Source: Cenococcum geophilum
Taxonomy: Eukaryota
Assembly: GCA_050273025.1 (NCBI GenBank)
Contig: CP158635.1
Coordinates: 20,274,001-20,338,000, forward strand
Length of the DNA: 64,000 nt
Direction of reading: 5' to 3'
Shown one piece after another: positions 5,223-62,900 of the stretch (position 1 is its first letter; the number at the start of each line of letters is the position of its first letter). The notes below the pieces were generated by a model that did no database searches, was not told where the DNA came from, and saw only the letters and a program-made list of their open reading frames with translations. A program made the position numbers and the translations under genes.

Positions 5223-6619
5223 TAGTAGTTAAGTAGATTTTTTATACGGTCTATATACTAGTTAGTAAGTAGCATCTTAAGGCGTTTTCTAACCCTATAT
5301 TTAATAATTAGAAGCTTTAATTATAGGATAAGCTTAAAGTTAATATAGACCACTTCCCTACTACTTAGGCTAAAATGGCCTATATCTTCGGCCGTACCGG
5401 CTGGGACGTATAGACGTACCTACGTCCGCGATACGTATAGGACTTAGCAGATCTCTTCCTCTCTAAAGAAGAGATAATTATTTACCTATCTTTTATTTAT
5501 AAGGACCCCTTTAAAGTATAAAACGCCCGACTTAATTATAAATGCCTAAATATAAAAACGATAGAGACCTTCTAGGCCTTTTAGACCCGCTTTTTACACC
5601 TAGCTAGCTAGGCTTAAATTCCTTAGGAAGATTTAATACTGGACCTATTTAATAAGCTTACCCTAGACCTGCAGCGAGCCGTATTACTAGTTTTTACTAC
5701 TATATAGACGCTAAAGGAACTTACGGACTAGTGCTTAGCTATTAACTAAGGCCTTTACTAAATTAAAGTATACGCTAAACGGTATAAAGCTAGAAACCCT
5801 TTAAGTTAGACTATAAGCAATATAAGAACGGCCCGTAATGCCCTAGCACGATCGGCAACCCCTATAGCACCACCCGTATAGCCCGCCGCCAATTTAGCAG
5901 CTAGCTATGCAGCTAGTCCTACTATAGGTCTAGTGAATGCTCGGCCTATATATAGGCCCTTAGTAATTAAGGAGCTTACTTCTCTTATAGTTAGAAAGGT
6001 CACCATATAAAGAATTGCCTAATAAACGCAAAAGTAGACGAGGTTCTATTAATTTAGGAGGACTCCGCTTCTGTATTAACTACTATAAGCTAAATAATAT
6101 AACCTATAAGGACTGCTATCCGCTTTCCTAACTTAATAAAACTTTAGCCCAAATAAGTAGAGCTAAGGTCTTTATAAAGCTTAATATCTACTAGGCCTTT
6201 TACTAAATTAGGATAAACCCTAAGTCTAAAAATCTTATTATATTTTAGACCTATTACGGAATATATAAATATAAGGTACTTCCTTTTAGACTAACTAATG
6301 GACTAGCTACGCACCAACGGTATATAAATAATGTACTCTTTAATTACTTAGACGACTTTTATACGGCCTATTTAGATAATATTATAATTTACTTTAAGAA
6401 TAAGCTAAAATACGAGGAGTATGTCTATAAAGTCCTATAACGGCTCTACGAGGCTAGCCTTTAGGTTAATATTAAGAAGTTAGAGTTTAGTATTAAGCGG
6501 ATAAAGTACCTAGGTTTTATTATTAGTATAAATGAAATTAAAACCGACTTAGAGAAGACGGCCGTAATTAACTAGTAGGCACCCCCACGGACCGTAAAGG
6601 GGGTATAATTATTTTTAGG

Positions 6620-6705
6620 GGCCGTCGAAAACGGATTCTGCACCTATACGTGGTGACGGCTACAAACCTAGGTCTTTAAAGTTCAGACCCAAAGCCAACG
6701 CAGAG
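6620..6705 (+). ncRNA. HDV-like self-cleaving ribozyme fold (RIP-mutated) at the 5' end of the non-LTR element
   Basis: P1 GGCCGTC 6620-26 / GACGGCT 6655-61 (G1.U wobble). P2 TTCTGC 6636-41 / GCAGAG 6700-05. P3 ACC/GGT. L3 TATACGT. P4 TAGGTCT/AGACCCA. J4/2 GCCAAC with candidate catalytic C6695. Confidence 0.8.
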
Positions 6706-7640
6706 ACGTTATATAGCGCGTGCAAGTAGGACCTAGTAGTTATATACGTCGTAGGGCGTAGTAAAAAGTTTTTACATAGGATAGTAAGATCTCAAAAACC
6801 ACTACTAACGGTACCCCTTTATAATATAGCCACTAGTTCTCCTACTAAGCACCTATATAATCTAACGTGGATGAACAGCTTTTAAAAGCATCCCCTAGCC
6901 CCCAATGGAAAGCATTAACGACCTCACATTAACGGACGAACGAGCGTACGAGCGAACGAACAAATAAGCAAATATACGGCCCCTCCTAACCCCCAGGGCA
7001 GTCGCCCGCGGAGCATGCGGTTACTCGCCGTTTTTAACTACCAAATACTACCTAGCAGCTTGGATTGCGACCCACAGTTTTCCCTATCTCCTTTCGACGG
7101 AGTAGTAACCCTTAGAGAGGGCCTAGCTGGGGCCTAGGCATAAAAGATACCTAAATAACACAATATCCCGCTCGCTTATTAGTATTACGGTGGTTAGAAC
7201 GGATAAATCCCCCTTACGCCTTTGATAGCTCTAGGGGGGGGGAGGCAAGGCGTATATAGCAGTGGTCTACATAAGAGATAGCATATAGGGGATGGGTAAG
7301 ATATAGGACACAAAGAGATAATAAGACACAGCAATCGATCAGCAAGGCCTAGCTGGGACGTAGTGAACCCTAGCTTTAATAAGCTAGAGAAGGAAGTAGT
7401 GGTTCCTAAGGAGTTCAAAACATTTAAGGAGGAGGACGTGTAGTAGGCCTGTAGGGCCGCTGCTACGTGCAAACATGGCAAATTGGGGTTTTTCATCCTA
7501 CTGAGGCTGCTTATAGGGTTTTTCCTCCCCCAACTGCAGGGTTTTCTTCATGTAAATTATAAGTTTTCCCCCCTATAACGGAGTAGTCTGCGTAGGCCAA
7601 GATAGGATCCGTATTAGACGTTAATCAAAGAACTACTACT
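6620..7640 (+). mobile_element. Non-autonomous non-LTR retroelement (SINE/SIDE-like, ~1.02 kb) inserted in the Gypsy RT
   Basis: 13-bp TSD aattatttttagg at 6607-6619 and 7641-7653, and an (ACT)3 tail. Removing the insert restores the GV(Q)(S)FLGFCNFY RT frame. No recognisable ORF. Confidence 0.88.
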
Positions 7641-10049
7641 AATTATTTTTAGGTTTTTGTAACTTCTACTAACGCTTTATTAAGAACTATAGTAGGATTA
7701 CCCGGCCTCTTAACCGTCTTACTAGAAAAGACTAGCCCTTTTACTTTAACGCTATATATAGGCAGGCCTTTAATAAGCTTAAGAAACGGCTAGTATTGGC
7801 TCCCCTATTTACCTATTTTAACCTAAAACGGCCTTTAATACTAGAAACTAATGCCTTAAACAGCGTAATAGCTAGTGTTTTTCCCCCAGAAGTAACCGGA
7901 TAAAGAGTAGCACCCTATTATATACTATTTAAAAACTATAATAGATGCTGAGCTAAACTACCACATCTATAATAAAGAAATGCTAGCTATTATCTCTAGC
8001 TTTTAGCACTGGTGTATATAGCTAGAGGGGACCCCTAAGCCAATTAAGGTAGTTTCAGATTATAAGGCTTTAGAATACTTTATAATAACTAAGGCCCTTA
8101 TAGCCTAGTAGGCACACTAGGTAAATACCCTATCTTAGTTTAACTTCTTAATTATATATAGACTAGGTACTATAAACCGTGCGGACGCTTTTATAAGGTA
8201 TAAGTAAAACCTAGATAACTAGATAGCTATAAAGATCTTATTATAGACCTAGACGCTACTATAACTAGAATACCTTAACCCCTAAATACGGGCAGAACTA
8301 AGCACGGACCCCCTAGGCGCTAAGATATATTTTATTAACTCCTCTAAACTTAACCTTATTAATAAACTACTATAGGCTAACTAAATAACCCCCTCTCTAT
8401 AGGAGTACCGCAAAAAGGTAAAGAACGTTACTAGCCTATAGTCCCTTAAAAACGGACTACTTAAGTACTAGAAACGGCTAGTAGTAGCTAAGGAATAGAA
8501 CTTATAGACCCAGCTTATTGCCAAAGCTTATACCTAGGTCTCTACGGCCTACCTTAGAAAAAAATAAGACCTGTAAGATTATTAGTAACCGCTACTACTA
8601 GCCTAGAATAGTTATAAATATTGACCGTTATATACGGAACTGTGATAGCTGCTATAGATCTATAATCCTATAAAATAAGACCCTAGGATTATTAAAACCA
8701 CTCCTAATACTATAACGCCCTTAGTAATATATCTTTATAGACTTTTATAAGCTACCTATAGACCATAACGAATATAATATAGTTATAATTCTAGTTAACC
8801 GCTTTAATAAGCGCCTGTTTTTAATCCTATATTATAAGAATATTAATGCTAAAGAAGCGGCCTAATTATATATCTACTACGTCTACTAAATCTATGGACT
8901 ACTAAATACTATTATATCCAATTATAGGCCGTAATTTATATTAGATTTCTAGAATAAGTTTACCTAGATTTTAGGCATTAAGCTAAAGCTTTTTACTATA
9001 TATCACCCTAGATAGATAGTTAGACGGAAATTATAAATTAATACTTAGATTAGAGACTTCGGCCCTTTATTAACTACTTTTAAAATAACTGGGCTAAACT
9101 ATTACCCTTAATAGACTATACCCAAGTAACCCTACCCTATAACTCTATAGGATTTGCCCCTATTTAACTAAAAATAGGATACTTACCCTATATAAGCTTT
9201 AACTAGGAAAGACTAGAAGAACCCCAGAATATATACAAAAAACTATCTTATAAGAAAGCACGGCAGTACGCTAAGCGCTTAGAAGAAGCCTAGATAGTAG
9301 CCCGTATAAATCTAAAAAAGGCCTAAAAATTAATATAATAATAGGTAAATAAGTATAGACAAGAGCCTGACTTTACCGTAAAAGATATAGTTTAGGTTAT
9401 AATAAAGAACTAGAAGACGGAACAACCTAGCTATAAGCTAAACTATTAAATAGCAAGACCGTATAAGGTTCTTAAAAAGATAGGCAATATATATAAAGTA
9501 AAGCTCCCAAATTTAATTAAAGTTTACCCTATTTTCTCTCTGGATAAACTACAGAAAGCTATAAATAACCTATTACCTAGACAAAAGAATAAACCTCCCC
9601 TGCTAATCTAAGTAAATAGCAATAATAAATAGGAAATTAAAGAAATACTGGCCTATAAGCTTATAAGGGGAATGTTAAAATATTATATTAAGTGGAAAGG
9701 GTACGACCTGGACCCCACTTAATACCCTATATAGAACTTTATAGGTAGTCCCTATAAGCTTTAAAAGTTTTATAGTCGTTACCCTAACAAACCCGGACCC
9801 CTAAAGTACCTTAATAAGTAGATAGAGTGCTAGAATAGCGAAGACAATAAGCTGCCCATTAATTATAAAGATAAGAATACCCTATAGATATAATATAGAC
9901 GTATAAAGCTTAAGGGCAGGCTTTTTTAGAAAAGGGGGGGGTAATATTACGGCGCTAGTAGAAACTAGTGGAAACTAGTAGAAACTAGTAAATTATATAG
10001 GCTTACGCGTCCCTCTTGCCGTGCTCGTGCCTTAATTAACTAAGTCGCT

Positions 10050-11451
10050 AATAATAGGGAGGCTAGTAAGAGAAAAGATACTAAAATAGTAAAAAAATAA
10101 CTAGCAATAGAATAAGAATAAAGGAAAATACTATACTAAAATCTATAAAGAAAGCTATTAGAGGTATATCGAGAATATATTTATAGTATAAGAGCTAAAA
10201 CAAGACCACCTAGGAGCTATTAGGAAATCTAAAGAATGCTATAGAAAAGGTATAGGAGTATTAAAAGAGAATGGGTTAGGTAATATTAAAAAGGAGCTAA
10301 AAATAAAATAATTAGTTAAAGGTAATAGATAAGCTAGATTATCTAAGGGATCTACTACTAGTATATAAGCTGTTTCCGCCTCTTCTTAATTATAATCATT
10401 TTTAGCCTCTTTATTCTTAAGCTTACGGAGACCTTACTTAATAAGACGCTACTCCTTAGAGTATACCTTTTTATAACCCTTTTTAAGACGAACTAGACAA
10501 GCATAGGCAGTCTATTAAGCTTTAAATACTTTCCGCTCTTTAATATAAATCTATTCTCTATTATTACGAAGCTTTTATACTTTAGTAAGAGCAGTAATAA
10601 GTTTATCTTTAAGGTGGAACGCCTTAGATTAAATATAGGACCCTATAATAAATTAGATAAGAAAGTTAAAGACTTTAAAGACTAGTAAAATACGTACACT
10701 TAGTGTTAGAAATGGATTAAATATTACAAGACGATTATATATTCGCTCGCGTATACTTAGTATAAAAAGAAGGCTAGTAACTAGACGGAGCCGCGATTAT
10801 AATATATACTAACTTCCTTTCCTTATAATAAGAATAGGATGGTATAACTTTACTAAGTATAAGAATAACAGTTACTAGCTGGTTACGATAATTAGACGCA
10901 GGGGATTTAATAAAAGGTATTAAAAATAATAAAGGTTATTAAATTAAAAACGGGAATGCTATACCTCTAATAAACAACTTAGAGATAGAAGATATCTTTA
11001 AGGACAAAGATAGAGAGGAGGGGGATAGTGTTATAGACCTTATATTAGTAGTAGTACGACTACTAAGAAGAGATATAAATGGGTTAATTAAAATAGTATA
11101 GGAGATACTAGAACTGATTAAGCTATAAGATAAGAGGTAACTAAGTTATATAGCTAGTTACGTTATAAGTTTAAAACGTAGGAACGTAGGAATATAGAAA
11201 CGTAAGACGTACTAACGTACTAACGTACTGACGTACTTAGTACATTTCTTAGGCGCAGTATTGTGTACTTAAAGGACTACAGTCTCTACCTAGATAGTTC
11301 TCTTTTTTATAGTACATTTTAGAATATAATTAGAGTTAATTTGTTAGGCAAACACTCCACTAGTTATTATTACGTTATTAACTTTCTTGTTATTTACATA
11401 CCTAGCCCATTAATAAGTTTACAGTAGTTCCTACTACAAGGCTTTATTACA
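10050..11451 (+). mobile_element. 3' remnant of a family-A-related Gypsy element (subfamily B) with 3' LTR 11029-11451
   Basis: PPT gagaggagggggatag is followed by a TGTT...TACA LTR. Its R/U5 half is the reverse complement of the family A LTRs (18381, 25705) and its U3 half matches 48387-48683. Confidence 0.8.
10330..10920 (-). pseudogene. Antisense accessory gene relic of Gypsy B: Zn(II)2Cys6-like cluster, intron (10697-10643), coiled coil
   Basis: Homologous to the copies at 18882 and 60468. Intact GTACGT donor, CTAAT branch site and TAG acceptor; Cys6 is retained as TGT. The 3' end is approximate. Confidence 0.7.
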
Positions 11452-11454
11452 CAT

Positions 11455-11585
11455 TTACTATACGTCTACGGTATATCTACGTCTACAGTACGTTTACGGT
11501 GCGTCTACGTCTATAGTACGTCTATAGTGCGTCTATAGTATACCTATAATACGCCTACAGTACGCCTACTATACGTCTATAGTGT
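11455..11585. repeat. Degenerate ~11-bp minisatellite (tacgtctacag-like)
   Basis: Repeated cgtctacag / cgtctatag units. Confidence 0.75.
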
Positions 11586-18354: not shown

Positions 18355-18380
18355 AAGCCGCCCTTAAGCGATATACCCAA

Positions 18381-21300
18381 TATAATAAAGCCTTATAGTA
18401 GGAACTACGGTAAACTTATTAATGGGCTAGGTATATAGGTAAATAAGAAGTTAGCAATATAGTAATAACTAGTAAAGTAGTTACCTAATAGATTAACTCT
18501 AATTATATTCTAAGATTTACTATAAAGAAAAGAACTATCTAGGTAGGGACTATAGTCCTTTAAATATATAACCGCGCTTCTAAGAAATCCTCTTTATACG
18601 TAATATACGCCTTATATATAAAGTACGTAAGTTCCTTTTATTCCTCTTATTTAATACGTAGTACGTTATATAGTTCTATCGGCTCTATTTTAGACCGTGC
18701 CTTAATTAACTAACTAGTGGCTTCTAACTCCTTTTCTAGTAGTTATAATATTATACTTAAAGCGTCTATAATACTATCTCCCTCCCTTTTATCTTTGTCC
18801 TTAAAGACTCTTAATATCTTTAAGTTATTTACTAGAGGTATAATATCCGTCTAATTAATTTAGTTAATATTATTACTTATTATACCTAAAGCTTCTTCTT
18901 CTTTATACGCCTAACGTCGTGCCTACACCATTGCTGCAATATTATCGCTTAGTAAAATTATACCTTCTCTATGTTCTTATTGTGCGAAAAAGGGATTAGT
19001 TTACGTTACGTTAGTAAGCTTATCCTTATAACAACTATCCTCTTATTTAAAGTGTACTAAAGCGAATATTTATTTATCCTATAACGTCCGCTTTACTTTT
19101 AATGCTAAATATACGCGTTTTATTACTCTTAATAGCCGTCTAGTTCCTTAGTTAATTTACCTTAGGGTCTTATATTTAATCCGCTACTGCTTATTTTAAT
19201 AGTAAGCTATCTTAGGCTCTTACTAAGTTAGAATATTCTCACAACGCGGAGTAAAGGGCCCTAAATGCCCGTATTACGATATCTGCTTAGTTACTCTATC
19301 TTAAGAAGGTTTATAAGAAGATGCGTTTTAAGAAGTAGAAACTTATAAAATAAGGTTTATAGGAACTTAGTAATAAAAGAACGGATTCTCTTTTATCTAA
19401 AAAGGAAATAGATCTAAGTAGTTTAGCAACTGCTTCTCTTGGGTCCCCCTTAAGTAACTTATTCTTTAGTAATCCTTCTTTATTAATACTACCTAACCTA
19501 ATTTCCTCTAATACTCCTATACCTTTCTTATAGCGTTTTTTAGATTCTATAGTAGTTCCTAGGTAGTTTTATTATAGCCTATCTACTTAACCTTATACTA
19601 TATTTTATTGTTAATGTCCTTATAACTAATAATTTTTAAAACTTACTATTTATCTTCCTTTTATCCTCTATACGTATCTACTTTATAGATTAGTGGCTTA
19701 ATATTCCCATATACTAGCTCTAGTATTATAATATACTATATAGGGTAGATCTTTATCTTAGCTAGTAGGTTTAACCTAAATATAACTAGTAAAATCCTTT
19801 ATATAATTTTAAAAGGTCCTAATCTAACATAGTTTAACTTTTTACTTAGTTATTAACTCTTAAAACTTTTGTATAGTACCTACACTTTATCTCCCTCCTT
19901 AAGATCTGGTCCCTTAGGTCTCTTAGCATTATAGTACCTTTTTATTCTTTTTTATACCTTTTTTACTAATTCTATAAGGTCTATATAAAGATTTATTAGT
20001 GTCTTTATTCTTTCTTTAGCTATACTACTTATTTTCTTTACTTACCGTAGTAATAATAATGTTCTTAGCTTATATCTATAATTTACCTTAAATAGTAATA
20101 TGCCTATTCCTTCTTATAGTGTTATATTATATATAAACTATATAACTAGTAATAGCGATACCCAATTACTTTATATATAATTAATATAATGCCTTAGATA
20201 CTATTCTAGCGTCTAATTTAGTCTTTTTATTTGTCCGTCCGTTTACGGATAATATACGGTAGAAGTTGCTACTCTAACTTCTTATTTCGCTAAAAATACC
20301 TCCTAAAATACTATGATAAATCTTAGATCTCTATCCAATATAATCTTACTTAATGCTCTATATTTTATAAATACTTCTTTAATATAGATTCTAGTAATAT
20401 CTTCTACTAAGATTTCTTCTATGCATGCTATAAAGTAGCCCTATTTAATTAGTTTATCTACTATTACTAAGATTATATTATGCTTCTATCCAGTAATAGA
20501 ATCTCTTAACTTTAATAATTTAACGATAAAGTCCTATAATATAACCTCCTATAGTCTTTCTGGTATTTTAATAGGTTATAGCCCTCCATATAGCTTATAC
20601 CTTATTAGTTTATTTCTTTAACAATTTAAATACTTTTTATTACTTTTCTAGCTATACTCTAGATTCTATTAATAATTTTTTTTAAAGTCTTAATACTAAG
20701 CCTGTTGCTTTATTATGTCCTTAAGTTATTCCCTTATAGAAGTCTTCTATAAAATACTCTGCTATACTCTTTAGGATATACTTTATTTCTTAATTTTCGT
20801 ATATATCCATCTATAGATCTTTTAGTTATACTTTTAAAATTCTTTATACCTAAAAGCTTTCTGGTGTTTTATAGACTCTTTTTAGTTTATTATCCTCTTA
20901 AGTTACTACTAGCTTAAGGTAATTATATCTAATTAATCCGTCCTTATCTCTACGTAGTATTACTCCTAATAGTTTCTTATTATTTTATAGTTTAGCCTTT
21001 TTACTAAGTACGTCTACCTTTATATTCTTAGTTCCTTTAATATATTAAATTTTAAAATAGTATTTTATAAGCATCTCTACCTATCTAACCTATTTATAAT
21101 TAAGTTTTTTTATTATTAGGAACCCTATTAGGTTCTTATAATTTATTTTAATTATAAATAGTTTTTCTACACCTTATAAGAATACTCTTTATTTTTTAAG
21201 TACTGCGACTATACCTAATAACTCTTTATTATAGATGTTATAGTTTAACTCTAGAAGTGTTATTTTCTAACTATAGTATACCACTAGATGCTATATACTC

Positions 21301-24300
21301 CTATATTTCTATAGTAAATATACTCCTAGTATAAAGTCTAATATATTTATTTCTATAACTATATCTAGTTTTAGTTAGTAGATTTTAAGGATTGGCTCCT
21401 AGGTAAATAGCTCTTTAAGTTCCTTAAATAGGTTCCTTTACTTATCTCCCTATACCTATAGTTCCTCTTTTTTTATAAACCTAGTAAATAGTTTAATATT
21501 CTTTAACTACTATGCTATAAACCTTTTATAGTAGTTACAAACCCCTAAAAATAACCTTAACTATGTTATATTCTCTAGTTCTTAATAACTTACTATAGCT
21601 TTAATCTTTTTTAGGTCTATACTAATATAACCTAGTTTAATAATAAATTTAATAAAATTAGTCTTCCTTATAAAGAACTTGTATTTCTTAATTACTACTA
21701 GCATCTATTTTTTTAATAGTCTCTTTAAGACCTATTTAACGTATTCCCTATATTTTTCCTTAGTTATTAAGTAGATAATAATATTGTTAAGGTATACTAT
21801 AATAAACTTATTAAGGTGTTCCCCTAATATACTATTAATCCGTTTCTAAAACGTTGCTAGTATATTTATAAGCCTAAATTATATTACTAATAGCTTATAT
21901 AATCCTTCCTTTAATTTAAAAGCTGCCTTTTATTTATTGCCTTCCTTAATTTTAATCTAATAGTACGCCTATCTTAGATCTATCTTTATAAAGATTTACG
22001 CATTACCTATTTAATCCTAAATTTCGCTAATTAAGGGTAAAGAATACCTATCCTTTTTAGTAATGCTATTTAACTGTCTATAGTTAATATATAGCCTAAG
22101 TTTTCCGTTTTTCTTTAGTATAAATAATACTAGATATCCTACTAATAACTATAATAGTTTAATATATCCCTTTTATAAGTTCTCCTAAATAAACTCCTTA
22201 AGTACTCTTAACTCCTCTTAAGTAAGCTTATAGGTTGGAAAGAACCTTAAACTTATTTCTAATTCTAACTCTATCTTATAGTCCTATACTATATAATTTA
22301 CTAGCCTTTTACTTTCTAGGCTCTATAGTTTCTTACTATATTTATAGTATCTTTTTAGTATATAACTTAAGCCTCGCTTAATCTCCTTATATATTACTTT
22401 AACTTAGTATTATACCTACTTAGTCTATTATTATATTCTATATTATTAAGTATTTCTAATATTAACCTAACCTATAATCTAATTAATCTTTAGATTATAT
22501 TTCTATAATTAAGGTATTCTTAATACTGCCTTATCCTATCTTAATAGTAGGATATTAAAAGATATCTTAATTTATCTTCCTTTAATAGTTATCTAAATAG
22601 GTCCTATTTTAAGGTTAATAATGCCTCCTCTATAGGCTATTAGATCTTCTAAAATTATAACTAATAGGTAAAATTGTTCCTTCTATCTATAAGGTAATCC
22701 TTTTTTTTTTAACTACTACTAGTAAAATATAGTTCCGTATTACCCTACTATCTATTTATACTTTAAACTGTTAATCTTACTAATTAACTTATAAATTTAG
22801 GTGTTATCCTTAAATTCCTTTAAGGGTCTAAGGGTTTACTACTAGCTCCCTCTAGTTTATAGGCCTCTACTTTTCCTAACTATTAGCTGCTTACCTTATA
22901 TACTTAGCTTACATTTTAGCTAATACCTAGTTCGCTTTTTGTCCTCTATATACTATAAATATATATTCTCTAAGTATTCTTCCGTAAGAAATCTTTCTAG
23001 TTAAAGTATTAAGTCTCCTAACTCCTAAACTTCTACTAAATGCCAGCCGTATATATACTTAGTATTTCTATATTATTGCTTATCTAGCGCCTAATATATC
23101 CTTATAGGGTATTTCCAATTCTTTTCTTTTAGATTTTTGTACATTTTGTATATATTATCTATATATGCAATCTATACTAATATATAATACACTAGGTGCT
23201 TTAAGTTAACTCTTAACTTATTTTTATCTTTAAGTTTAAACCTCTATTATATTAATCTAAACGTTATAACTTTATTTATAGGTATTAAAATATATCTCTT
23301 ACTTCTCTAGTCCTCTAATTATTTCTCTAAATCCTTTAATATTATAATTAAGGCTCCCCTAATATAAGTTATAGCTTTTTTAGTAATTAGGTGGTCCTAG
23401 ATAACTCTTTTATCTAACTATATATAGAAATCTTCCTTTTTATCATTATGTCGTTGCCTATACTACTTTTAGTATAGCTACTAGAGTATATACGGCTTGT
23501 CTGTAAGGAAGTATCTTCTTATTACTATATTATAATAGCCCTTTATATATTATTCTTTAAACCTAGTAGAGATCCCTAGATCCTCTTTATCTTCTAATTT
23601 AATAAGCTATTTAGCTCTTAGCGTGCCTACCCTAGGCCTATTAGTAATTCTTTATACTAGTGCTCTGTCCTTTATATAACCTAGTATACTAGTTCTCTAA
23701 TCTAGCTTTTGTTCTTACTATATAAGAATTCTCTATCTAAATTCCTCTATGTTTTCTTTTAGTTTTTGCCTTATAAGTAAATCCTTAAAGTCTTCTTACT
23801 TCTTAATTTTAGTTTATTTAATAGTCCTTATTTATATCTAGAAATCTTAGTTCTATAAAAATCTTAATCCTAAGCTTACTTCTATCTTAAGCTTGGCTTT
23901 AGCCTTAGTCTAACTAGGCTTCTTTAGTGTTCTTATCTCGTCTTAAGAGTCTTAAATCTTACTTATTTTACTTTAAGAATCTTATATCTTTAGGAAACTT
24001 CGTCCTAAGCTTATTTATATATTACTAAACTAAGCCGTTACTCTGCTCTATTAGTTATCGTCTATTATAAGTCCTTAAGCTTATCTTATCCTATCTTAGG
24101 AATCTTAAGCGTCTTATATCTTGTCTTAAGAATCTTAAGCCTTTAGCCTTTTGCCTTTATTAAGTGCCGAAGTAGTTTATTATCCTACTTCTCCTACATC
24201 TTATAAAGCAATAGATATTATATTTAGTAGGGTCTTAATCCCTACTAATATTCCTTATTCTATAGTAAAATTATCCTCTACCTTTTATATAATATCTCTA

Positions 24301-26124
24301 AGGTTTATATACTCCTAGTAAGCTACCTTTATTACCTTATTATTATTAAATATTTCGCCTATATTAAATTTATTATCCTTAATATCTAATCTATAAACTA
24401 GTTTATTAGTTCCTCTAAATTTTAATAATTTTAGCTTTTATAGCTAATAGCTTACGCTATACTTAGCGTCTTTATAAATTTAGTATATGTTATTATAATA
24501 AAACGTAAAACCCTTAATTAAATATTCTTTTGTTCCTTATAGTATACTATTATCCCTATATATATATATATATCTTCTACTAGTCTTATTTCTTTTACTA
24601 TATAGTAACTCTAACTACTTTTATAGTCTTTAATATAATAACCCTATTTTTTATAATTTATATAAGCTCCTTCTTTAAACTATTTTTTTTGCTATAGAGT
24701 CCGCCTAAACATCTTTTACTACTAAAATCCCTAGTTTAGCCTTTGCTCTTTAGACCTTTAATTACTTAATCTTTATCCTCTAGGTTTCTATAGTTGTTTA
24801 TTCTATTTTTAGTTTTCTTTAATACTACTTAGGTTTATTGGCTTTACGCTATACTATAGTTTCTAACTTTAACTTTACTAATGCGTGCTTTACGCCTTAT
24901 ATAACTATAGAACTCTATCCTAACCCTTCTTAGTCTGCTCTCTTTAGTAGATTCTATTATTAATCTTAATTGCTTAATTAATTAAATCCCTAAGAGTATC
25001 CATATCTTCTATTAGGATAATTATATCCTAAACTTTCGCTTTAAGTCCCTGTTTATACTATACCATAAGTGCCTTATTATTTTATTTAACTTATATTGCT
25101 AATATTTAAAACTATATTATATACTTAATTACTAAAGTTCTTTATACTAGGTTTTAAAGCTTTCTTTCTACCGTAGTAGTTACTTCTAGGTTTCTAAATA
25201 TCTATATTAAGCGTTTTACGAACCCGTTCTAACTTAAGAATATATACTATACCTCTTAGTTAATAGTTATTATACCATATTCCTATACTTCCGTAAGGTA
25301 AGGCTTAAACCACTTAAGTACTCTCCCTATTAAGAATAATCCTGCGTAAGTGACTTAATCTATAGGCGTTCCTAGTTTAACTCCTTTCTATATAACCTTA
25401 AAGTATATTTATATAAGGAATCCCTTAAGCTTTAACTTCTCTCCTGAAAATCGCTTAATTAAGGATAACTTAACCTTAGCTGCTCTAATGCCATTAATCC
25501 TTTCTTTAAATATCCTGTTATTATCTGTTAATTAATTAACTATTTCCTATAGCTATCCAACAGTAACTAGTTATAAGTTAGTATTTATTATACTAGTATT
25601 ATTACCTAATCCCAAGGTAGTTACTACTATAGACGTTATCGTAGCTACTGCTTTTAGTAGCATGTTATTTAACTTTATTAATACTATAACCTTAGTAGTA
25701 AATATATAACAAAGCCTTATAGCAAGAACTATAGTAGACTTATTAATAGGCTAGGTATATAGGTAAATAAGAAGTTAATAACGTAGTAATAACTAGTAGA
25801 GTAGTTACCTAACAGATTAACTCTAATTATATTCTAAGATTTACTATAAAGAGAAGAACTATCTAGGTAGGGACTATAGTCCTTTAAATACACAACCGCG
25901 CCCCTAAGAAATCCTCTTTATACGTAATATACGCCTTATACATAAAGTATATAAGTTCCTCTTGTCCCTCTTATTTAATACATAGCACGTTATATAACCT
26001 TAGCTACTATTCCTTATTACATAGTTCTATCGGCTCTATCTTAGACTATACCTTAATTAACTAACTAGCGGCTTCCAACTCCTCTCTTAGTAGTCGTAAC
26101 ATTGTACTTAAAGCGTCCGTAATA
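18381..26124 (-). mobile_element. Full-length RIP-degraded chromodomain Ty3/Gypsy element A1 (LTRs 18381-18773 and 25705-26124)
   Basis: 5-bp TSD cccaa on both sides. Gag ATG at ~25663; protease, RT, RNaseH, integrase and chromodomain relics on the minus strand; PPT adjacent to the left LTR. Confidence 0.93.
18882..19450 (+). pseudogene. Antisense accessory gene relic of Gypsy A1: Zn(II)2Cys6-like cluster, intron 19111-19165, coiled coil
   Basis: Reads CSYC-x6-(TAC)-x13-(TAT)LKC-x8-(TAT). The 55-nt intron sits at the same position as in the other two copies. The 3' end is uncertain and overlaps the pol chromodomain end. Confidence 0.72.
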
Positions 26125-27306
26125 CCCAAGTAAGGGTTAAAATAACGCTTATATTACCCCCCCCCTTTATTAGGGCTAGCCCCTAGCCCATATACCCAAA
26201 TAAATTAATTCTATATATAAAAGGTAAGTAGTGCTAAAGCCTTACTTATATAGGGAAATAGGAAATAGGGAGCTAAGCAGCCTTAATAAAAACCTTAACC
26301 TATAACCAAAACCCAGTAGGAAAAAAGGTCTTATTTAGGTAGGAAAAGAGCGTCTATTAATAGGGTAAGACTTAATTATATATAATTAGTCTTGGAGATA
26401 ATCGCCTGCGATTAAGTCTTAACAGCTCTATAGCTAATAGCCGTAAAAATATCCCTTATATTACCCCCCCCCCTTTTATAGTTAGCCCCACTATTACCTT
26501 ATAGTAGAGGGAGATTATAAAGGGCTTATCCTAGAAGGGGTTTAGAAGAATATTGGCATTTAACCACAATAGGGTCTTATAAGCTAAGCTATAGCTTTTA
26601 AAGTAAGCTAGAGCTCTTAGAGTAACTAAAACTCTTAAAGCAACTAAAGCTTTATAGAGATAATTACGTAGGATCTTTAAGCTAAAGCTCTTAGGGTAAG
26701 CCGTAGTCTATAAAACTATATAGGATCTTTAAGCCAAAGCTTAAGGTAAGCCGTAGCTCTAAGAGACAACCGCCTACGGTTAAGTCTTAGTAGCCCCTAG
26801 GCTAACAGCTAAAGAGTCTCTAAATTAGGCTATAGCCCTTAAATAAGCCGTAGCTCTAAGGCAAGGCATATCTCTAAGAGATAATCGCCTGTAATTAAGT
26901 TTTAATAGCCCTATAACTAATAACTGGAAAGTCTTTAGGTTAGACCCTAGCCCTTAAATAAGCCATAGCTCTAAAGCAAGCTATAGCTCTAAAAGATAAT
27001 TGCCTGCAATTAGGTCTTGGCAGCTCTATAGCTAATAGCTAGAAAGTCTTTAGGTTAGGCCCTAACCCTTAAGCGATTGTAAATAATCTAAGAGTTATAG
27101 CTTTTAAAGTAAGCAGTAGCTTATAAGACTACCTACAATTTTAAAGCCGAAGCTCTTTATATCTCTTTAAGGACGTTTAACCTTTTAAGCTCTATTAATA
27201 GGACTTCTATAACAAGCAAACCGCGCTTAGCCTAAAGAGCGTTATTAATCTCCTTAGAAGATAATCGCGTCTAATTTAGTCTCCCTTTTCTAATCTATAT
27301 TCTATA

Positions 27307-29152
27307 ACGTGATCGGTAAGTATCCTGGCCACGCAAGTATCCTGGCCACCCCACCAAAAATCGCGAAATACGTGACGCGTTACTCAACTACCACCTTAAT
27401 GGCCACGCCACGATAACAAGAAGCCCTTTTTTAAGAAGGTAGACTTGATCTAGCTATCCAAGCCTATAAGTAGGGCCAATTCTCAAGTTTCCGAGCCGCC
27501 ACTAGCACGTACAATGTGCCCCGGAGCACTGCCTAGCTACGCGTTAAAGGCATCAAACCAAAACGCGATTCTGTTGGACCAAATCGCCGTCTTACACCAG
27601 CACAAGAAGAGAGTCTTAAGCAGTGGATTCTATCAATGGATTAACGCGGTATGCCACCTAGGATTGCTACCGTACGGCAGATGGCTAGTCTCCTAGCTAC
27701 CCAGTATACCAGATCAGCTACCCTACAACTAGTCGGTGAAAAATAGGCATACAATTTTATTAAGCGCCATAACGACCTATAGTCTAAATATAATCGCAAG
27801 TACGACTACCAGCGTGCTAAATGCGAGGATCCTATACTTATTCGGGCCTAGTTTAAACGCGTTTAAGACATAAAGATAGAATATAGAATTCTCAACAAAG
27901 ACACCTAGAATTTTAACGAGACTGGCTTCCAAATGGGTGTTATTGCAACCGTAAAAGTTGTTACTAAAACCGACCGTGCTGGCCGTCCTAGAACAGTATA
28001 GCCAGGCAATCGAAAATGGGTCACAATTATTAAAGCTATTAATGCCCTAGGGGTTGCAATTCCATTACTCGTTATCTTTAAGGCAATAATACACCAGGCT
28101 GCCTGGTATAAGGACAATATTATACCACACAACTGGTCAATTGGTGTTAGTAATAACGGCTAGACGACAAATAAGATTGGCCTAACCTGGCTAATGGAGG
28201 TCTTTGATAAGCATACAAAGGTTCGCACAGTTGGCACGCATCGGCTACTAGTACTAGATGGCCATAATAGCCACGTATCGCCTGAATTTGATCGGTTCTG
28301 CCTGGATCATTAAATAGTCGTCCTCTGTATGCCAGCGCATTCGTCCCATCTACTACAGCCGCTAGATGTAGGCTGTTTCTTGGTCCTTAAGCAATTGTAC
28401 AGAAGCCTCGTTTAACAGATCATAGGCCGCGGTATTAATTACATTAATAAACGCGAATTTCTGCCACTATATAGGCAGGCTAGGTAAACAGCACTACATC
28501 AGAACAATATATAGGCAGGATTCGCTGCTACTGGCCTAGTTCCATATAGCCCTAATCGCGTATTAGCATAGCTGCACACCAAATATCGGATGCCGTTACC
28601 CTAATGTCTGCAATTAAATGCATCCTGGATAGCTGAGACACCCCATAATATTACTGAACTATAACAGCAGACGGCCCTGCTAAAGCGTTATCTTAAACAG
28701 CGTACGCATAGCCCACTAAGTCCAGCAGGATAAGCCCTTAGCCAGCTTGTTAAGGGGTGCGAAATGGCGATGTCAAGCGCTGTACTACTTGCAAGCGAAA
28801 ATGAGAAGCTACGTATGGAGAACCGGCGCCAAAAAAAGAAAAAGGCACAGCGGCGCACGTATATAGCTAGGGGAGGTGTTCTATCAGGAGCAGAAGGGGC
28901 TTCTCGGGCACAAGCTGCCCAGGAGGGGGCAGCAGAGGCAGTGGCTGAGCGACCGCAACGGGTAATGCGCAAGTGTAGCATGTGCAAATTAACAGAACAT
29001 AATGCACGTACGTGCCCTAGACGTCAAATAAATAGCCAGTAGATAGCTACACTAAATACAATTGTTCGTTGTTGAGTAACGCGTCACGTATTTCGCGATT
29101 TTTGGTAGGGTGGCTAGGATACTTGCGTGGCCAGGATACTTACCGATTACGT
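27307..29152 (+). mobile_element. Fot1/pogo DNA transposon, lightly RIPed transposase 27399-29042
   Basis: ~80-bp TIRs (acgtgatcggtaagtatcctggcc...), TA TSD. Motifs NF(D)ETGFQMG, LVLDGH.SH, HSSHLLQPLDVGCF and C-terminal CSMC...HNARTC. Confidence 0.95.
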
Positions 29153-50536: not shown

Positions 50537-50538
50537 TA

Positions 50539-59934: not shown

Positions 59935-62900
59935 TGTAACGGAACCTTGTAGCAAGAACTACAATAGGTTCGTCAATAGGCTAGGTGTGTAGGAAATGCA
60001 AGTATAAAAGTTAACAACGTAATAATAACTGGTGGAGTGGTTGCCTAACAGATTAACTCTAATTATATTCTGAGAATCACTATAAGGAAGGAACTATCTA
60101 GGTAGGGACTAAGGGTCCTTAAATATACAACCGTACTCCTATAAAATTCTTCTTATATATAATATACGTCTTATACATAAGGTACGTGAGTTTCTCTCGT
60201 TCCTCTTGTTTAATATATAACACATTATATAACCTTAGTTACCATTTCTTATTACATAGTTTTACGGGTTCCATCCTAGACTATATTTATATTAACTAAC
60301 TAGCTTCTTCTAACTCCTCTCCAAATAGTTATAGCATTATACTTAAAGCGTCCGTAACACCATCTCCCTCCTTTTTATCTTTGTCCTTAAAGATTTAAAA
60401 TATCTCTAAATTGTTTACTAGAGGTGTAATATTCGTCTAATTAATTTAGTTAATATTATTACTTATTATACCTAAAGAAATTTCTTCTTTATACGCCTAA
60501 CGTCGTGCTCGTACTGTTGCTATAATATTATCTCTTAGTAAGATTATGCCGTCTCCATATTCTCGTTGTTTGAAAGAGGGATTAATTTATATTGCGTTAG
60601 CGAGTCCTTTATCCTAGCAACCTTCCTTTTATTTAGAGTGTACTAAAGTAAATATTTGGTTATCCTATAACGTTCGCTCTACTTCTAATGCTAAATATAC
60701 GCAACTTATTACTCTTAATAGTCGTCTAGTTCCCTAATTAATTTGTCTTAGGGTTTTGTATTTAATCTGCTGCTGCTTAGCTAGATAGTAAACTGTTATA
60801 AGCCCTTACTAAGTTAAAATATTCCCGTAACGCGGAATAGAAGGCCTTAGATGCTTAAATTACGGCATCTACTCGTCTGCTTTGTCTTAAGAAGGTTTAT
60901 AAGGTCTATTCTAAGGAGTAAAAACTTATAGAATAAGGTTTATAGGAACTAAGTAATAAAAGAACGGATTCTCTTCCAATAGAGAAGGAAATAGATCCAA
61001 GTAGTTCGGCAACTGCTCTTCTTAGGTCCCCCTTAGGTAACTCGTTCTTTAGCAATCCTTTTTTATTAATACTGCCTAACCTAATCTCTTCTAATACTTC
61101 TATACCTTTCCTATAGCGTTTTTTAAATTCTCTAATAGCTCCTAGGTAGTCTTAGTATAGCCTATTTACTTAACCTCGTACTATATTTTGTTATTAATAT
61201 CCTTATAATTAACAATCTTTAATACTTACCATTTGTCTTCTTCTTATCCTTTATACGTGTCTACTTTATAAACCGGTGGCTTAATATTCCTATATGCTAG
61301 CTCTAGCATTATAATATGCTATATAGGGTAGATCTTTATTTTGGCTAGTAGGTTTAACTTAAATGTAACTAGTGAAATCCTTTGTGTAATTTTAAAAGGT
61401 CCTAGTCTGATATAGTCTAATTTCTTGCTTAGTCATTAACTCTTGAAATTTTTGTATAGTAGCCATACTTTATCTCCCTCCTTAAGATCTGGTCCCTTAG
61501 ATCTCTTAGTATTATAGTACTTTTTTATTCTCTCTTATACTTTCTTTACTAATTCCGTAAGGTCTATATAAAGATTTATTAATATCTTCATTCTCTCTTT
61601 AGCTATACTACTCGTTTTCTTCGCTTACTATAGTAATAACGATGTTCTTAGCTCGTATCCATAATTTGCCTTAAATAGTAATATACCTATTCCTTTTTAA
61701 GGTGTTATATTATATGTAAACTATATAACTAGTAATAGTAATACCCAATTATTCTATGCATAATTAATATAATGTCTTAAATACTATTCTAGCGTCTAAT
61801 TTAATCTTTCTATTTAACCGTCTGTCTGCGGATAATATGTGGTGGAAGTTGCTGCTTAAACTCCTTGCTCTATTAAGAATACTTCCTAGAATACTGCTAC
61901 GAATCTTAGATCTCTATCCGATATGATTTTGCTTAGTGCTCTATATTTTATAAACACTTCTTTAATATAGATTTTAGCGACATCTTCTGCTGAGATTTCT
62001 TCTATATATGCTATAAAGTATCCCCACTTTGTAAGCTTGTCTACTATTACTAAGATTACATCATAATCTTATCCGGTAATAGGGTCTTTTAATTTTAATA
62101 ACTTAACAATAAAGTCCCATAATATGACCTCCTATAGTCTCTTTAGTATTTTAATAGGTTGTAGCCCTCTATATGGCTTATGCCTTATTAGTTTATTTCT
62201 TTAATAATCTAGACATTCCTTTATAACCCTTCTAGCTATTCTCTAGATTCTATTAATAACGTACTCCTTTTAGAGTCTCGACACTAAGCCCGTAGCTCTA
62301 TTATGTCCTTAGGTTAGTCCCTTATAGAAGTCCTTTATAAACTGCTCTGCTATGCTTTTTAGGATATACTTTATTTCTTAATTCTTGTATATATCCGTTT
62401 ATAGATCTTCTAGCTATACTTCTAGAATTCTTTATACCTAAAAGCTTTCTAGTATCTCGTAGACTTTCTTTAGTTCATTATCTTCTTAAGTTGCTACGAT
62501 TTTTAGATAATTATACCTAATTAATCCGTTTATATCTTTTTGTAATAAAGCCCCTAATGGCTTTTCCTTATTTTATAGTTTAGCTTTACGGCTTAGAGCA
62601 TCTGCCCGCGTATTGTCTATACCTTTAGTATACTAAATCTTAAAATGGTATTCCGTAAGCATCTCTACCTATCTAACCTATCTTTAGTTAAGTTCCTTCG
62701 TTATTAGGAATCCTATTAGGTTCTTATAATCTATCTTAACCACAAATAGTTTCTCTATACCTTATAAGAATGCTCTTTATTCCTTTAATGCTGCAACTAT
62801 ACCTAATAACTCTTTGTTGTAGATATTATAGTTTAACTCCGGTAGTGTTATCTTCTAACTATAGTATGCCACTAGGTGCCATCTATCTTAATACCTTTAT

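What the first reader, a model, noticed from the sequence alone, without database searches (positions are those of the whole stretch)
18882..19450. Gypsy retrotransposons carry an antisense, spliced Zn(II)2Cys6-like gene (three copies)
Seen: the same opposite-strand frame lies between the chromodomain and the 3' LTR in three elements (+18882, +60468, -10920), starting about 110 bp inside the LTR. Combined, the copies give C-x2-C-x6-C-x13-C-x2-C-x8-C. Cys1, 2, 5 and 6 survive as TGT in at least one copy; Cys3 and 4 are TAY in all, which is the RIP product of TGY. A 55-nt phase-1 intron sits at the same position in all three (GTACGT...CTAAT...TAG intact in the 10.7-kb copy). Splicing creates a Trp codon and continues into an E/K/R/L-rich coiled coil. 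Established: this spacing fits the fungal Gal4-type binuclear cluster, usually followed by a dimerisation coil, and an antisense intron is not removed from the element's genomic RNA. Inference: an element-encoded DNA-binding regulator or anti-silencing factor expressed from the 3' LTR in antisense. I do not know of a description of this accessory gene.
Basis: partly seen in the sequence, partly recalled or inferred. Interest (0 to 1): 0.85.

Follow-up and report, generated by a model that had tools for sequence, protein, structure and literature searches.

The report
Antisense six-cysteine gene in fungal Gypsy retrotransposons
Three mutated copies of a fungal Gypsy retrotransposon carry, on the opposite strand between the polymerase gene and the end repeat, the remains of a real, spliced, conserved small gene for a six-cysteine, coiled-coil protein that may regulate the element; a gene at the same place was reported in Botrytis in 2011.

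Summary
All three window copies carry the frame, the six TGY/TAY codons and a 55-nt intron-like gap, and all are dead (copy A has 10 in-frame stops).

It is not a chance frame. A profile of the three copies found 211 database proteins. In 79 related loci the frame always lies antisense, next to the chromodomain end of pol (74 of 79; 5 had too little flank).

Substitutions that repeat-induced point mutation (RIP) cannot make concentrate at third codon positions in both exons, in the spliced frame, and not in the intron. Six intact database ORFs read straight across the junction with Trp.

The full protein is about 200 aa:
- a basic N-terminus;
- C-x2-C-x6-C-x13-C-x2-C-x8-C;
- a roughly 75-residue helix predicted to form a homodimer;
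- an acidic tail with a conserved C-terminal motif.

Its last 68 bp overlap the end of pol.

Membership of the Zn(II)2Cys6 family is not established: the best Pfam score is 17.7 bits against a cut-off of 21, the linker is one residue too long, and the fold is predicted with low confidence.

An antisense gene, brtn, sits at this position in Boty-like elements (Zhao 2011). I could not test homology to it.

Verdict: a real accessory gene, a new member of a known kind. The regulator function is inference.

The parts
18380..18774 (-). 3' LTR of element A (a Ty3/Gypsy chromovirus lying on the - strand)
   Evidence: 84% identical to 25704-26125 over 422 columns.
18777..18806 (-). Polypurine tract of element A (purine-rich on the - strand), abutting the LTR
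   Evidence: Read directly. Conserved in copies B and C. Limits are approximate.
18882..19110 (+). Copy A, exon 1 of the antisense gene: start codon (ATA, from ATG), basic N-terminus, six-Cys motif. Two in-frame stops.
   Evidence: The profile built from it finds 211 relatives.
19111..19165 (+). Copy A, 55-nt phase-1 intron (5' GT mutated to AT; 3' TAG kept)
   Evidence: No codon periodicity of transversions. Absent from six spliced-form database ORFs.
19166..19533 (+). Copy A, exon 2: coiled coil, acidic tail and conserved C-terminal motif, with the stop codon at 19531-19533. Eight further in-frame stops.
   Evidence: Homologous to intact P0169, P0175 and P0177.
19466..19657 (-). Chromodomain-like C-terminus of pol of element A. 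The pol stop is at 19466-19468, so pol and the antisense ORF converge and overlap by 68 bp (19466-19533).
   Evidence: Translation and index; the pol-stop coordinate is my count of residues in that translation. The chromodomain was read by eye, with no Pfam hit. The same arrangement is seen in L014, where I estimated the pol stop by eye from the translation, giving an overlap of about 55 bp.
19466..25703 (-). gag-pol region of element A, degraded by repeat-induced point mutation (RIP)
   Evidence: Pfam RVT_1 E=2e-10, RT_RNaseH_2 E=2e-14; SH3_Tf2-1 E=0.0017, below its cut-off.
25704..26125 (-). 5' LTR of element A
60468..61116 (+). Copy B of the antisense gene (exon 1 60468-60696, intron 60697-60751, exon 2 60752-61116). 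LTR at 59934-60361; pol on the - strand from about 61050.
   Evidence: Pfam RVT_1, RNase H and Integrase_H2C2, plus SH3_Tf2-1, on the - strand of 61000-63997.
10239..10920 (-). Copy C of the antisense gene (exon 1 10920-10698, intron 10697-10643 with GTACGT...CTAAT...TAG intact, exon 2 10642-10239). Its element lies on the + strand, with the LTR at about 11028-11460.
   Evidence: Pfam RVT_1 and RNase H, plus SH3_Tf2-1 below its cut-off, on the + strand of 3003-10502.

Best explanation
The three stretches are dead, RIP-mutated copies of an accessory gene that belongs to this lineage of Ty3/Gypsy chromoviruses.

Shown:
- The gene lies antisense between pol and the 3' LTR.
- It starts about 108 bp inside the internal region, next to the polypurine tract.
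- It has one short phase-1 intron.
- It converges on pol and overlaps its last codons.
- It has evolved under purifying selection on the protein.
- Intact relatives encode a protein of about 200 aa: a basic N-terminus, a six-Cys motif (C-x2-C-x6-C-x13-C-x2-C-x8-C), a helix of about 75 residues, an acidic Ser/Pro-rich tail and a conserved hydrophobic-acidic C-terminal motif.

Inferred:
- An antisense promoter in or next to the 3' LTR drives it.
- Because its splice signals exist only on the antisense strand, the intron survives retrotransposition.
- The six Cys bind zinc in a Zn2Cys6-like module.
- The helix makes a homodimer.
- The protein acts in the nucleus as a nucleic-acid-binding regulator of the element's own expression. 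Its layout (metal-binding module, dimerising helix, acidic tail) is that of a minimal Gal4-type activator. Its genomic position mirrors the antisense bZIP factor HBZ of HTLV-1 (recalled).
For: Family is real:
- 211 hits at E<=1e-3 and 93 at E<=1e-10 among 1.84e9 representatives.
- 569 relatives in metagenome contigs, of which 79 loci were kept.

Part of the element:
- In 74 of 79 loci the integrase/chromodomain end of pol lies on the opposite strand, starting 494-656 bp after the match start. Five loci had too little flank, and none with enough flank lacked it.
- This includes lineages whose integrase is only 49-59% identical to the window's.
- All three window copies sit beside Gypsy pol.

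Selection:
- Transversion diversity, which RIP cannot produce, by codon position: exon 1 0.075/0.038/0.167; exon 2 in the spliced frame 0.086/0.082/0.170; intron 0.082/0.080/0.069.
- Chi-square p=8e-8 (exon 1), 2e-4 (exon 2), 0.44 (intron).
- The six Cys codons are TGY or TAY in 80 of 80 copies at each position. In 168 proteins these columns hold almost only C or Y, for example 32 C, 134 Y and 0 other at Cys3.

Splicing:
- Six diverged intact ORFs (P0151, P0169, P0171, P0174, P0175, P0177) read ...EW-S(R/Q)V... across the junction.
- All six are JGI/IMG singletons on contigs of 921-1423 nt.
- None of 80 DNA copies lacks the intron.
- 3' AG is kept in 76 of 80. 5' GT is kept in 20 of 80 and is AT, the RIP product, in 58.

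Architecture:
- Alignment A8.
- AlphaFold2 twice gives helix 77-151 at pLDDT 93-99, and short helices starting at each CxxC (35-40 and 57/59-67).

Homodimer:
- Score 0.52; best of 3 controls 0.01.
- This mark was reached by 21 of 30 proteins solved as pairs of one chain and 0 of 23 solved as single chains. On eukaryotes it was 17 of 29 and 0 of 30.
- The runs agree in at least 80% of contacts, and the partner's pLDDT is at least 78.
- Zinc rode along and the alignment was not used, so the calibration holds only roughly.

Zn_clus likeness:
- PF00172 is the recurrent sub-threshold Pfam hit in 4 of 6 six-Cys copies tested: 13.6, 8.1, 15.0 and 17.7 bits.
Against: - No copy reaches the PF00172 cut-off of 21 bits. 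Most of these weak alignments put the first CxxCx6C on the second half of the profile. Only 1 of 27 members of A8 hits Zn_clus at E<=1.
- The C3-C4 spacer of 13 is outside the usual 5-12 (range recalled).
- A profile search of PDB sequences found no Zn2Cys6 protein; the best hits had E=0.55 and 1.3 and were unrelated.
- Foldseek against the PDB found nothing at E<=0.001.
- The Cys region is modelled at pLDDT 48-71 only.
- With the Cys region alone, the protein atlas returned no cluster carrying PF00172. One cluster carried DUF3716 in 28% of members, and P0170 gives DUF3716 at 15.4 bits against a cut-off of 22.
- The predicted dimer is antiparallel (residue 136 touches 90-97; 87 touches 143). 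Gal4-type coils are parallel (recalled).
- No DNA binding, zinc binding, promoter or effect on the element has been shown.
- All 80 genomic copies in hand are broken.
- That the spliced-form ORFs come from RNA is my inference: IMG gene calling does not model introns (recalled).
Confidence: 0.6

Rival explanations
1. The gene is the same, but the protein is not a sequence-specific DNA-binding factor. The six Cys form a zinc ribbon or knuckle-type module that binds RNA or a protein partner. The protein would then act after transcription, for example on element RNA, particle assembly or host silencing machinery.
For: - It fails the Zn_clus cut-off and has an over-long spacer.
- The outer CxxC pairs, 20 residues apart, would also fit a single four-Cys site.
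- AlphaFold2 places short strands around the first CxxC.
- There are weak pointers to DUF3716 rather than Zn_clus.
- The antiparallel dimer model would put the two Cys modules far apart.
Against: - All six Cys, not four, are conserved: TGY/TAY in 80 of 80 copies at each position.
- The C-x2-C-x6-C half-site occurs twice, as in binuclear clusters.
- Both models start a short helix at each CxxC.
- Zn_clus is the only family that recurs among the weak hits of six-Cys copies.
Confidence: 0.25
2. What matters is the antisense transcript, not the protein. Antisense RNA across the 3' end of pol would feed double-stranded RNA or small-RNA control of the element, and the ORF would be incidental.
For: - The gene converges on pol and overlaps it by 68 bp.
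- The review PMC7264820 (passages read) raises dsRNA-mediated regulation for antisense aORFs.
- Botrytis Gypsy elements are strong small-RNA sources (PMC8365987, passages read).
Against: - Third-position excess of transversions in both exons, in the spliced frame.
- Strict retention of six Cys codons.
- A conserved C-terminal peptide motif.

All three indicate selection on the protein. The two roles are not mutually exclusive.
Confidence: 0.06
3. It is a captured host gene fragment that hitch-hikes in one element lineage and does nothing for the element.
For: - LTR elements do capture host sequences.
- The nearest atlas clusters are Ascomycota proteins of about 200 aa, one of them automatically named a Zn(2)-C6 domain protein (a lead only).
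Against: - It is present in 74 of 74 testable loci, including lineages with 49-59% integrase identity.
- Its position and orientation are fixed.
- It shows codon-level constraint.
- No stand-alone copy was seen among the 79 loci.
Confidence: 0.05
4. It is a chance open frame and Cys/Tyr pattern in AT-rich, RIP-mutated repeat DNA.
For: The three window copies are copies of one element, so their shared frame is not independent evidence on its own.
Against: as set out above.
Confidence: 0.01

Closest known systems
[quoted passage not shown] 2011, Virology 417:248). The paper is not held. I read citing passages in PMC8365987, PMC7264820, PMC4227169 and PMC5987419.
   Same: - A fungal (ascomycete) Ty3/Gypsy element with a chromodomain.
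- An extra gene between pol and the 3' LTR, on the opposite strand.
- Missed by standard genome annotation (PMC8365987).
- A Monilinia transcript matches both truncated Pol and BRTN (PMC5987419), which fits the convergent overlap seen here.
   Different: - Homology is untested, because no BRTN sequence could be obtained with these tools.
- None of the passages I read mentions cysteines, zinc, an intron or a coiled coil.
- I cannot say whether the original paper does.
- Every relative I saw that carried source information came from JGI/IMG or ENA and carried at most a generic or evidently spurious name.
Antisense additional ORFs between pol and the 3' LTR of plant LTR retrotransposons (Grande1, RIRE2, Retand, PvRetro13), reviewed in PMC7264820 (passages read).
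   Same: Same position and orientation, presence in most copies of a family, conservation comparable with the element's other proteins, and unknown function.
   Different: - Plant, mostly non-chromovirus lineages.
- No sequence relationship was tested.
- The review text has no occurrence of 'zinc', 'DNA-binding' or 'intron'.
Gal4-type Zn(II)2Cys6 binuclear-cluster transcription factors (Pfam PF00172).
   Same: - Six Cys in two C-x2-C-x6..8-C half-sites near the N-terminus.
- A dimerising helix shortly after the sixth Cys.
- An acidic C-terminal region.
- Restricted to fungi.
- Weak, recurrent PF00172 hits.
   Different: - Below the Pfam cut-off in every copy.
- The spacer is 13 residues, not 5-12 (range recalled).
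- The helix is far longer (about 75 residues) and is predicted antiparallel.
- There is no middle homology region.
- The whole protein is about 200 aa and is encoded by a mobile element.
HBZ of HTLV-1, and antisense proteins of other retroviruses (recalled, not looked up here).
   Same: Encoded on the antisense strand at the 3' end of a retroelement, spliced, and containing a dimerising coiled coil.
   Different: - bZIP rather than a Cys-rich module, and a vertebrate retrovirus.
- HBZ is transcribed from the 3' LTR, and no promoter or transcript start has been mapped for this gene.
- This is an analogy of layout only.

Membership tests
Zn(II)2Cys6 binuclear cluster (Pfam PF00172, Gal4 type) | The whole-protein score reaches the curated Pfam cut-off (21 bits). 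| tested here: not met
   - P0151 13.6 bits, P0169 8.1, L029 15.0, L036 17.7.
- P0021 and P0092 give no hit.
- 1 of 27 members of A8 hits at E<=1.
- The window's own copies give none.
Zn(II)2Cys6 binuclear cluster (Pfam PF00172, Gal4 type) | Six Cys spaced C-x2-C-x6-C-x5-12-C-x2-C-x6-8-C (consensus recalled from reviews). | tested here: not met
   The spacing is C-x2-C-x6-C-x13-C-x2-C-x8-C in P0151, P0169, L029 and L036. Five of the six spacings fit. The central spacer is one residue too long.
Zn(II)2Cys6 binuclear cluster (Pfam PF00172, Gal4 type) | Fold of two short helices, each starting at a CxxC, around two zinc ions. | tested here: inconclusive
   AlphaFold2 gives helices 35-40 and 57/59-67, starting at C34 and C58, in both runs, but at pLDDT 48-71. 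There is no PDB match by sequence or by Foldseek.
Zn(II)2Cys6 binuclear cluster (Pfam PF00172, Gal4 type) | Binds two Zn(II) and recognises CGG-type DNA half-sites as a dimer. | not testable with these tools
   Needs metal analysis and DNA-binding assays.
Zn(II)2Cys6 binuclear cluster (Pfam PF00172, Gal4 type) | A parallel coiled-coil dimerisation element follows the cluster. | tested here: inconclusive
   - Helix 77-151 has pLDDT 93-99.
- Homodimer score 0.52 against a best control of 0.01. The mark was reached by 21 of 30 solved pairs of one chain and 0 of 23 single chains.
- The contacts are antiparallel, and P0151 is cut off at residue 152.
Antisense additional ORF between pol and the 3' LTR (aORF-3R; brtn of Boty-like elements) | Lies between the pol stop and the 3' LTR, on the strand opposite to gag-pol. 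| tested here: met
   All three window copies and 74 of 79 related loci. Five loci had too little flank, and none contradicted it.
Antisense additional ORF between pol and the 3' LTR (aORF-3R; brtn of Boty-like elements) | Conserved as a protein across copies and lineages of the element. | tested here: met
   Third-position excess of transversions in both exons, Cys codons kept in 80 of 80 copies, and alignments A7 and A8.
Antisense additional ORF between pol and the 3' LTR (aORF-3R; brtn of Boty-like elements) | Sequence homology to the BRTN protein. | not testable with these tools
   The paper is not held. No fungal genome collection or name search is available. The supplements of PMC8365987 have no occurrence of the name.
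Antisense additional ORF between pol and the 3' LTR (aORF-3R; brtn of Boty-like elements) | The antisense transcript is made. | tested here: inconclusive
   Six contiguous spliced-form ORFs sit on short JGI/IMG contigs, which implies intron-less templates, but their origin could not be checked. In the window's own species label no read covers the junction.
Ty3/Gypsy chromovirus (the host element) | RT, RNase H and integrase in Gypsy order, a C-terminal chromodomain, LTRs and a polypurine tract. | tested here: met
   RVT_1, RT_RNaseH, RT_RNaseH_2, Integrase_H2C2 and SH3_Tf2-1, though Integrase_H2C2 stays below its Pfam cut-off in every copy and SH3_Tf2-1 passes only in copy B; LTR pair. The chromodomain was recognised by eye only, with no Pfam hit, because of RIP.
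DUF3716 (Pfam PF12511) | The score reaches the curated cut-off (22 bits). | tested here: not met
   P0170 scores 15.4 bits (E=0.018) but covers profile positions 3-59 of 59. 1 of 27 members of A8 hits. An atlas cluster at rank 5 carries it in 28% of members.

The most novel reading that the evidence does not exclude
Ascomycete chromoviruses encode their own minimal Gal4-like transcription factor on the antisense strand. It would be a divergent two-zinc Cys6 module, a dimerising helix and an acidic activation tail in about 200 aa. It would be spliced from an intron that only the antisense transcript can remove, and it would bind the element's LTR to switch sense transcription on or off. That would be the fungal retrotransposon counterpart of retroviral transactivators and of the antisense factor HBZ. 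It would also give brtn-type genes their first mechanistic reading.
Probability: 0.3. Interest if true: 0.8.

Novelty: new member of a known kind. Interest (0 to 1): 0.55.

Why it matters
- Antisense extra genes of LTR retrotransposons are known in plants and in one fungal case, but the review I read says their function is unknown (PMC7264820).
- This family offers an unusually readable architecture: a metal-binding Cys6 module, a dimerising helix and an acidic tail. It also has natural intact homologues, so the question "what do antisense accessory genes do?" becomes testable with ordinary assays for zinc content, DNA binding and reporter activation.
- If the protein regulates the LTR, it would be a self-encoded control switch for a family of elements that fills the AT-rich, RIP-mutated compartments of fungal genomes.
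- Practically, the gene is missed or truncated by gene callers. Many database entries stop in the intron or are translations of mutated copies, so it is a recurrent source of spurious "hypothetical proteins".

Tried and rejected
- Whole genome of the window: not held.
- Zhao et al. 2011: not held. The supplements of PMC8365987 have no occurrence of 'brtn'.
- Literature. I found no paper describing a Cys6 or zinc-cluster antisense gene in fungal Gypsy elements with these searches:
  - 'antisense/retrotransposon/additional ORF/fungi/gypsy';
  - 'brtn';
  - 'brtn/Boty';
  - 'retrotransposon/antisense/binuclear/chromodomain/fungal';
  - 'Zn2Cys6/gypsy/LTR/ORF';
  - 'chromovirus/antisense/additional/Ascomycota/ORF'.
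  The library lacks most subscription journals.
- RNA: no RNA holder was listed. Laying the one raw RNA run plus three contig sets placed 52 reads at 80% likeness or more. None lay on exon 1, the intron or the start of exon 2, so the junction was not tested. The one joint listed (19092 to 19352, in one contig of X2) comes from a diverged copy and is not at the splice sites.
- Pfam on the window's own broken copies: nothing.
- PDB sequence profile search: two unrelated weak hits.
- Profile-profile comparison with true Zn2Cys6 domains: not possible.
  - The genome search does not hold these loci.
  - A regular-expression scan of the 79 loci and the window found no canonical Zn2Cys6 gene to use as a control, only two six-Cys copies of this family.
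- dN/dS proper: not computed. Every DNA copy is RIP-mutated and the intact relatives are available only as proteins. The transversion-by-codon-position test was used instead.
Natural intact homologues served the purpose.
Full report
**What is in the window.**
- The window is AT-rich fungal repeat DNA. GC is 24-44% in 2-kb windows, and the TpA/ApT ratio is 1.6-1.8 in the three stretches. That is the signature of repeat-induced point mutation (RIP).
- Element A is a Ty3/Gypsy element on the - strand. Its LTRs are 18380-18774 and 25704-26125, 84% identical. A polypurine tract abuts the 3' LTR at about 18777-18806.
- On the - strand Pfam finds RVT_1, RT_RNaseH and RT_RNaseH_2, plus SH3_Tf2-1 below its cut-off, despite many stops. 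A chromodomain-like C-terminus, read by eye, lies at about 19492-19657. By my count in the translation the pol stop is at 19466-19468.
- Copies B (from 59934) and C (the element on the + strand, ending at about 11460) are attached to the same kind of pol.

**The observation.**
- In copy A it starts with ATA (ATG after a G-to-A change) at 18882, which is 108 bp inside the internal region and not within the LTR.
- The six positions of the motif are TGT TGT TAC TAT TGT TAT in A. In B they are TAT TGT TAT TAT TGT TAT. In C they are five TAT and then TGT.
- A 55-nt stretch (19111-19165 in A) separates two frames offset by +1. Copy C keeps GTACGT...CTAAT...TAG. Joining gives T+GG = Trp.
- Copy A has 10 in-frame stops in about 200 codons. 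The window copies are dead.

**Is it more than chance?**
- Three copies of one element share a frame by descent, so I looked outside the window.
- A profile of the three broken exon-1 translations, with stops read as X, was searched against 1.84 billion representative proteins. It found 211 hits at E<=1e-3 and 93 at E<=1e-10.
- Most of these are themselves translations of RIP-mutated copies. In 168 family proteins the six Cys columns hold almost nothing but C or Y, for example 80 C, 84 Y and 1 other at Cys2, and 32 C, 134 Y and 0 other at Cys3. A neighbouring variable column holds 13 different residues.
- Because RIP turns TGY into TAY and never the reverse, Cys is the ancestral state at all six positions. 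P0151, P0169, L029 and L036 carry all six.

**It belongs to the element.**
- A scan of metagenome contigs found 569 relatives, of which 79 loci were kept.
- In 74 of 79 loci the integrase/chromodomain end of pol lies on the opposite strand just downstream. The other 5 had less than 1.5 kb of flank. No locus with enough flank lacked it.
- This includes a second group of lineages whose integrase is only 49-59% identical to the window's.

**Selection and the intron.**
- RIP makes only C-to-T and G-to-A changes, so I used transversions only, on an alignment of 80 DNA copies: 77 loci and the 3 window copies. Two loci were dropped because the region was shorter than 500 nt.
- Transversion diversity by codon position:

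| Region | Position 1 | Position 2 | Position 3 |
|---|---|---|---|
| Exon 1 | 0.075 | 0.038 | 0.167 |
| Intron | 0.082 | 0.080 | 0.069 |
| Exon 2, in the frame predicted by splicing | 0.086 | 0.082 | 0.170 |

- Chi-square on columns with a minor class of at least 3 gives p=8e-8 for exon 1, p=2e-4 for exon 2 and p=0.44 for the intron. So both exons evolved as coding sequence, and the frame shifts across the gap as splicing requires.
- The start codon is ATG in 23 copies and ATA in 57 of 80. The 5' site is GT in 20 and AT in 58. The 3' AG is kept in 76 of 80.
- Six intact, mutually diverged database ORFs (P0151, P0169, P0171, P0174, P0175, P0177) read ...(D/N)(A/S)EW-S(R/Q)V... without interruption.
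- All six are JGI/IMG singletons on contigs of 921-1423 nt. None of the 80 DNA copies lacks the intron.
- IMG gene calling does not model introns (my knowledge, not tested here). These ORFs therefore most likely come from spliced RNA, but I could not inspect the contigs.
- None of the 80 genomic copies is intact. The best, L014, has one internal stop.

**The protein.** Intact relatives give about 200 aa:
- a basic N-terminus;
- a hydrophobic stretch with a conserved second Met just before Cys1;
- C-x2-C-x6-C-x13-C-x2-C-x8-C;
- seven residues later, a long helix with a strongly conserved basic core;
- an acidic Ser/Pro-rich stretch;
- a conserved hydrophobic-acidic C-terminal motif, whose codons overlap the end of pol.

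AlphaFold2 was run twice, with alignments of 23 and 27 rows. It gives the helix (77-151 of P0151) at pLDDT 93-99 and the Cys region at only 48-71, with short helices beginning at each CxxC.

A homodimer prediction passed its controls:
- Score 0.52; best of 3 controls 0.01.
- The mark was reached by 21 of 30 proteins solved as pairs of one chain and 0 of 23 solved as single chains. On eukaryotes it was 17 of 29 and 0 of 30.
- The runs agree in at least 80% of contacts, and the partner's pLDDT is at least 78.
- Zinc rode along and the alignment was not used, so the calibration holds only roughly.
- The contacts are antiparallel.

**Is it a Zn2Cys6 domain?** It resembles one but does not pass as a member.
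- PF00172 is the one Pfam family that recurs among the weak hits of six-Cys copies: 13.6, 8.1, 15.0 and 17.7 bits in 4 of 6 tested. The cut-off is 21 bits, and most of these alignments are out of register. Only 1 of 27 rows of A8 hits at E<=1.
- The central spacer is 13 residues, against the usual 5-12 (range recalled).
- PDB sequence and fold searches found nothing.
- The protein atlas placed the whole protein near Ascomycota clusters of about 200 aa, one automatically named a Zn(2)-C6 domain protein (score 0.91). The Cys region alone gave no PF00172 cluster, and one cluster with DUF3716 in 28% of members. P0170 also gives DUF3716 at 15.4 bits, below its cut-off of 22, over the whole profile. 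These atlas results are leads only.

**What is known.**
- An antisense gene between pol and the 3' LTR of a fungal chromovirus has been published: brtn in Boty-like elements of Botrytis cinerea and Sclerotinia (Zhao et al. 2011).
- I could read only citing passages:
  - it is absent from the current B05.10 annotation;
  - a Monilinia transcript matches both truncated Pol and BRTN;
  - a review states that the function of such antisense ORFs is unknown.
- None of these passages mentions cysteines, zinc, an intron or a coiled coil.
- I could not obtain a BRTN sequence, so homology is open.
- Six literature searches found no description of a Cys6 antisense gene.

**Expression in this organism.**
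- No RNA holder was listed.
- The one raw RNA run gave 52 reads at 80% likeness or more, and none on the junction.
- Reads at 19415-19640 come from less mutated copies elsewhere: their differences are mostly A>G and T>C. All have the first mate on the - strand. Whether that means + strand RNA depends on the library type, which is not stated.

**Verdict.**
- It is best filed as a new member of the known class of antisense accessory ORFs of LTR retrotransposons, possibly the brtn family itself.
- What may be new is the reading of its architecture, which suggests a zinc-binding, dimeric regulator. That mechanism is inference and needs the experiments listed under the next steps.

Noticed in passing
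window 19111-19165, 60697-60751, 10643-10697; loci L001-L079: Intron lengths fall into classes of 55 (65 copies), 61 (7), 124, 127, 130 (2) and 133 nt. All of these are 1 mod 3, 77 of 80 copies in total. A spliced intron has no reason to keep its length modulo 3, and I have no explanation. In the long class the extra 70 nt or so sits just after the 5' splice site.
   Followed up: partly
window 19415-19640: RNA reads of run X1 map here only, at depth 7-12. All have the first mate on the - strand, and they differ from the window mostly by A>G and T>C. They come from less mutated copies elsewhere and cover the zone where pol and the antisense ORF overlap. The strand of the RNA cannot be told without the library type.
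   Followed up: partly
P0170 residues 90-140; atlas cluster at rank 5: Two weak, separate pointers to Pfam DUF3716 (PF12511), a fungal domain of unknown function: 15.4 bits over profile positions 3-59 of 59, and 28% of members of a neighbouring atlas cluster. The Cys module may be nearer to that family than to Zn_clus.
   Followed up: partly
window 18963-18971 (copy A) and alignment A8: A second conserved Met sits three residues before Cys1, and several database ORFs begin there, for example P0070, P0096 and P0116. It could be an alternative start that drops the basic N-terminus.
   Followed up: no
window 48946-50539 and 58341-59934: A 1594-nt inverted repeat, 93% complementary. Related stretches lie at 27724-29079. 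This is another repeat family, and the arm at 58341-59934 sits directly against the LTR of copy B. The window is a nest of elements.
   Followed up: no
window 51623-58343: Two partial copies of the same Gypsy element lie head to tail and share an LTR-like segment at 54176-54598. Neither includes the 3' region with the antisense gene.
   Followed up: no
window 2890-3189 and 3886-4185: A direct repeat of 300 nt, 91% identical, spaced 996 nt apart, upstream of the pol of copy C's element.
   Followed up: no
database proteins P0021, P0031, P0037, P0045, P0153, P0170: Many database 'proteins' of 150-230 aa are read-throughs from the LTR and polypurine tract into exon 1, or stop inside the intron. 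Gene callers mis-model this gene in a systematic way.
   Followed up: partly
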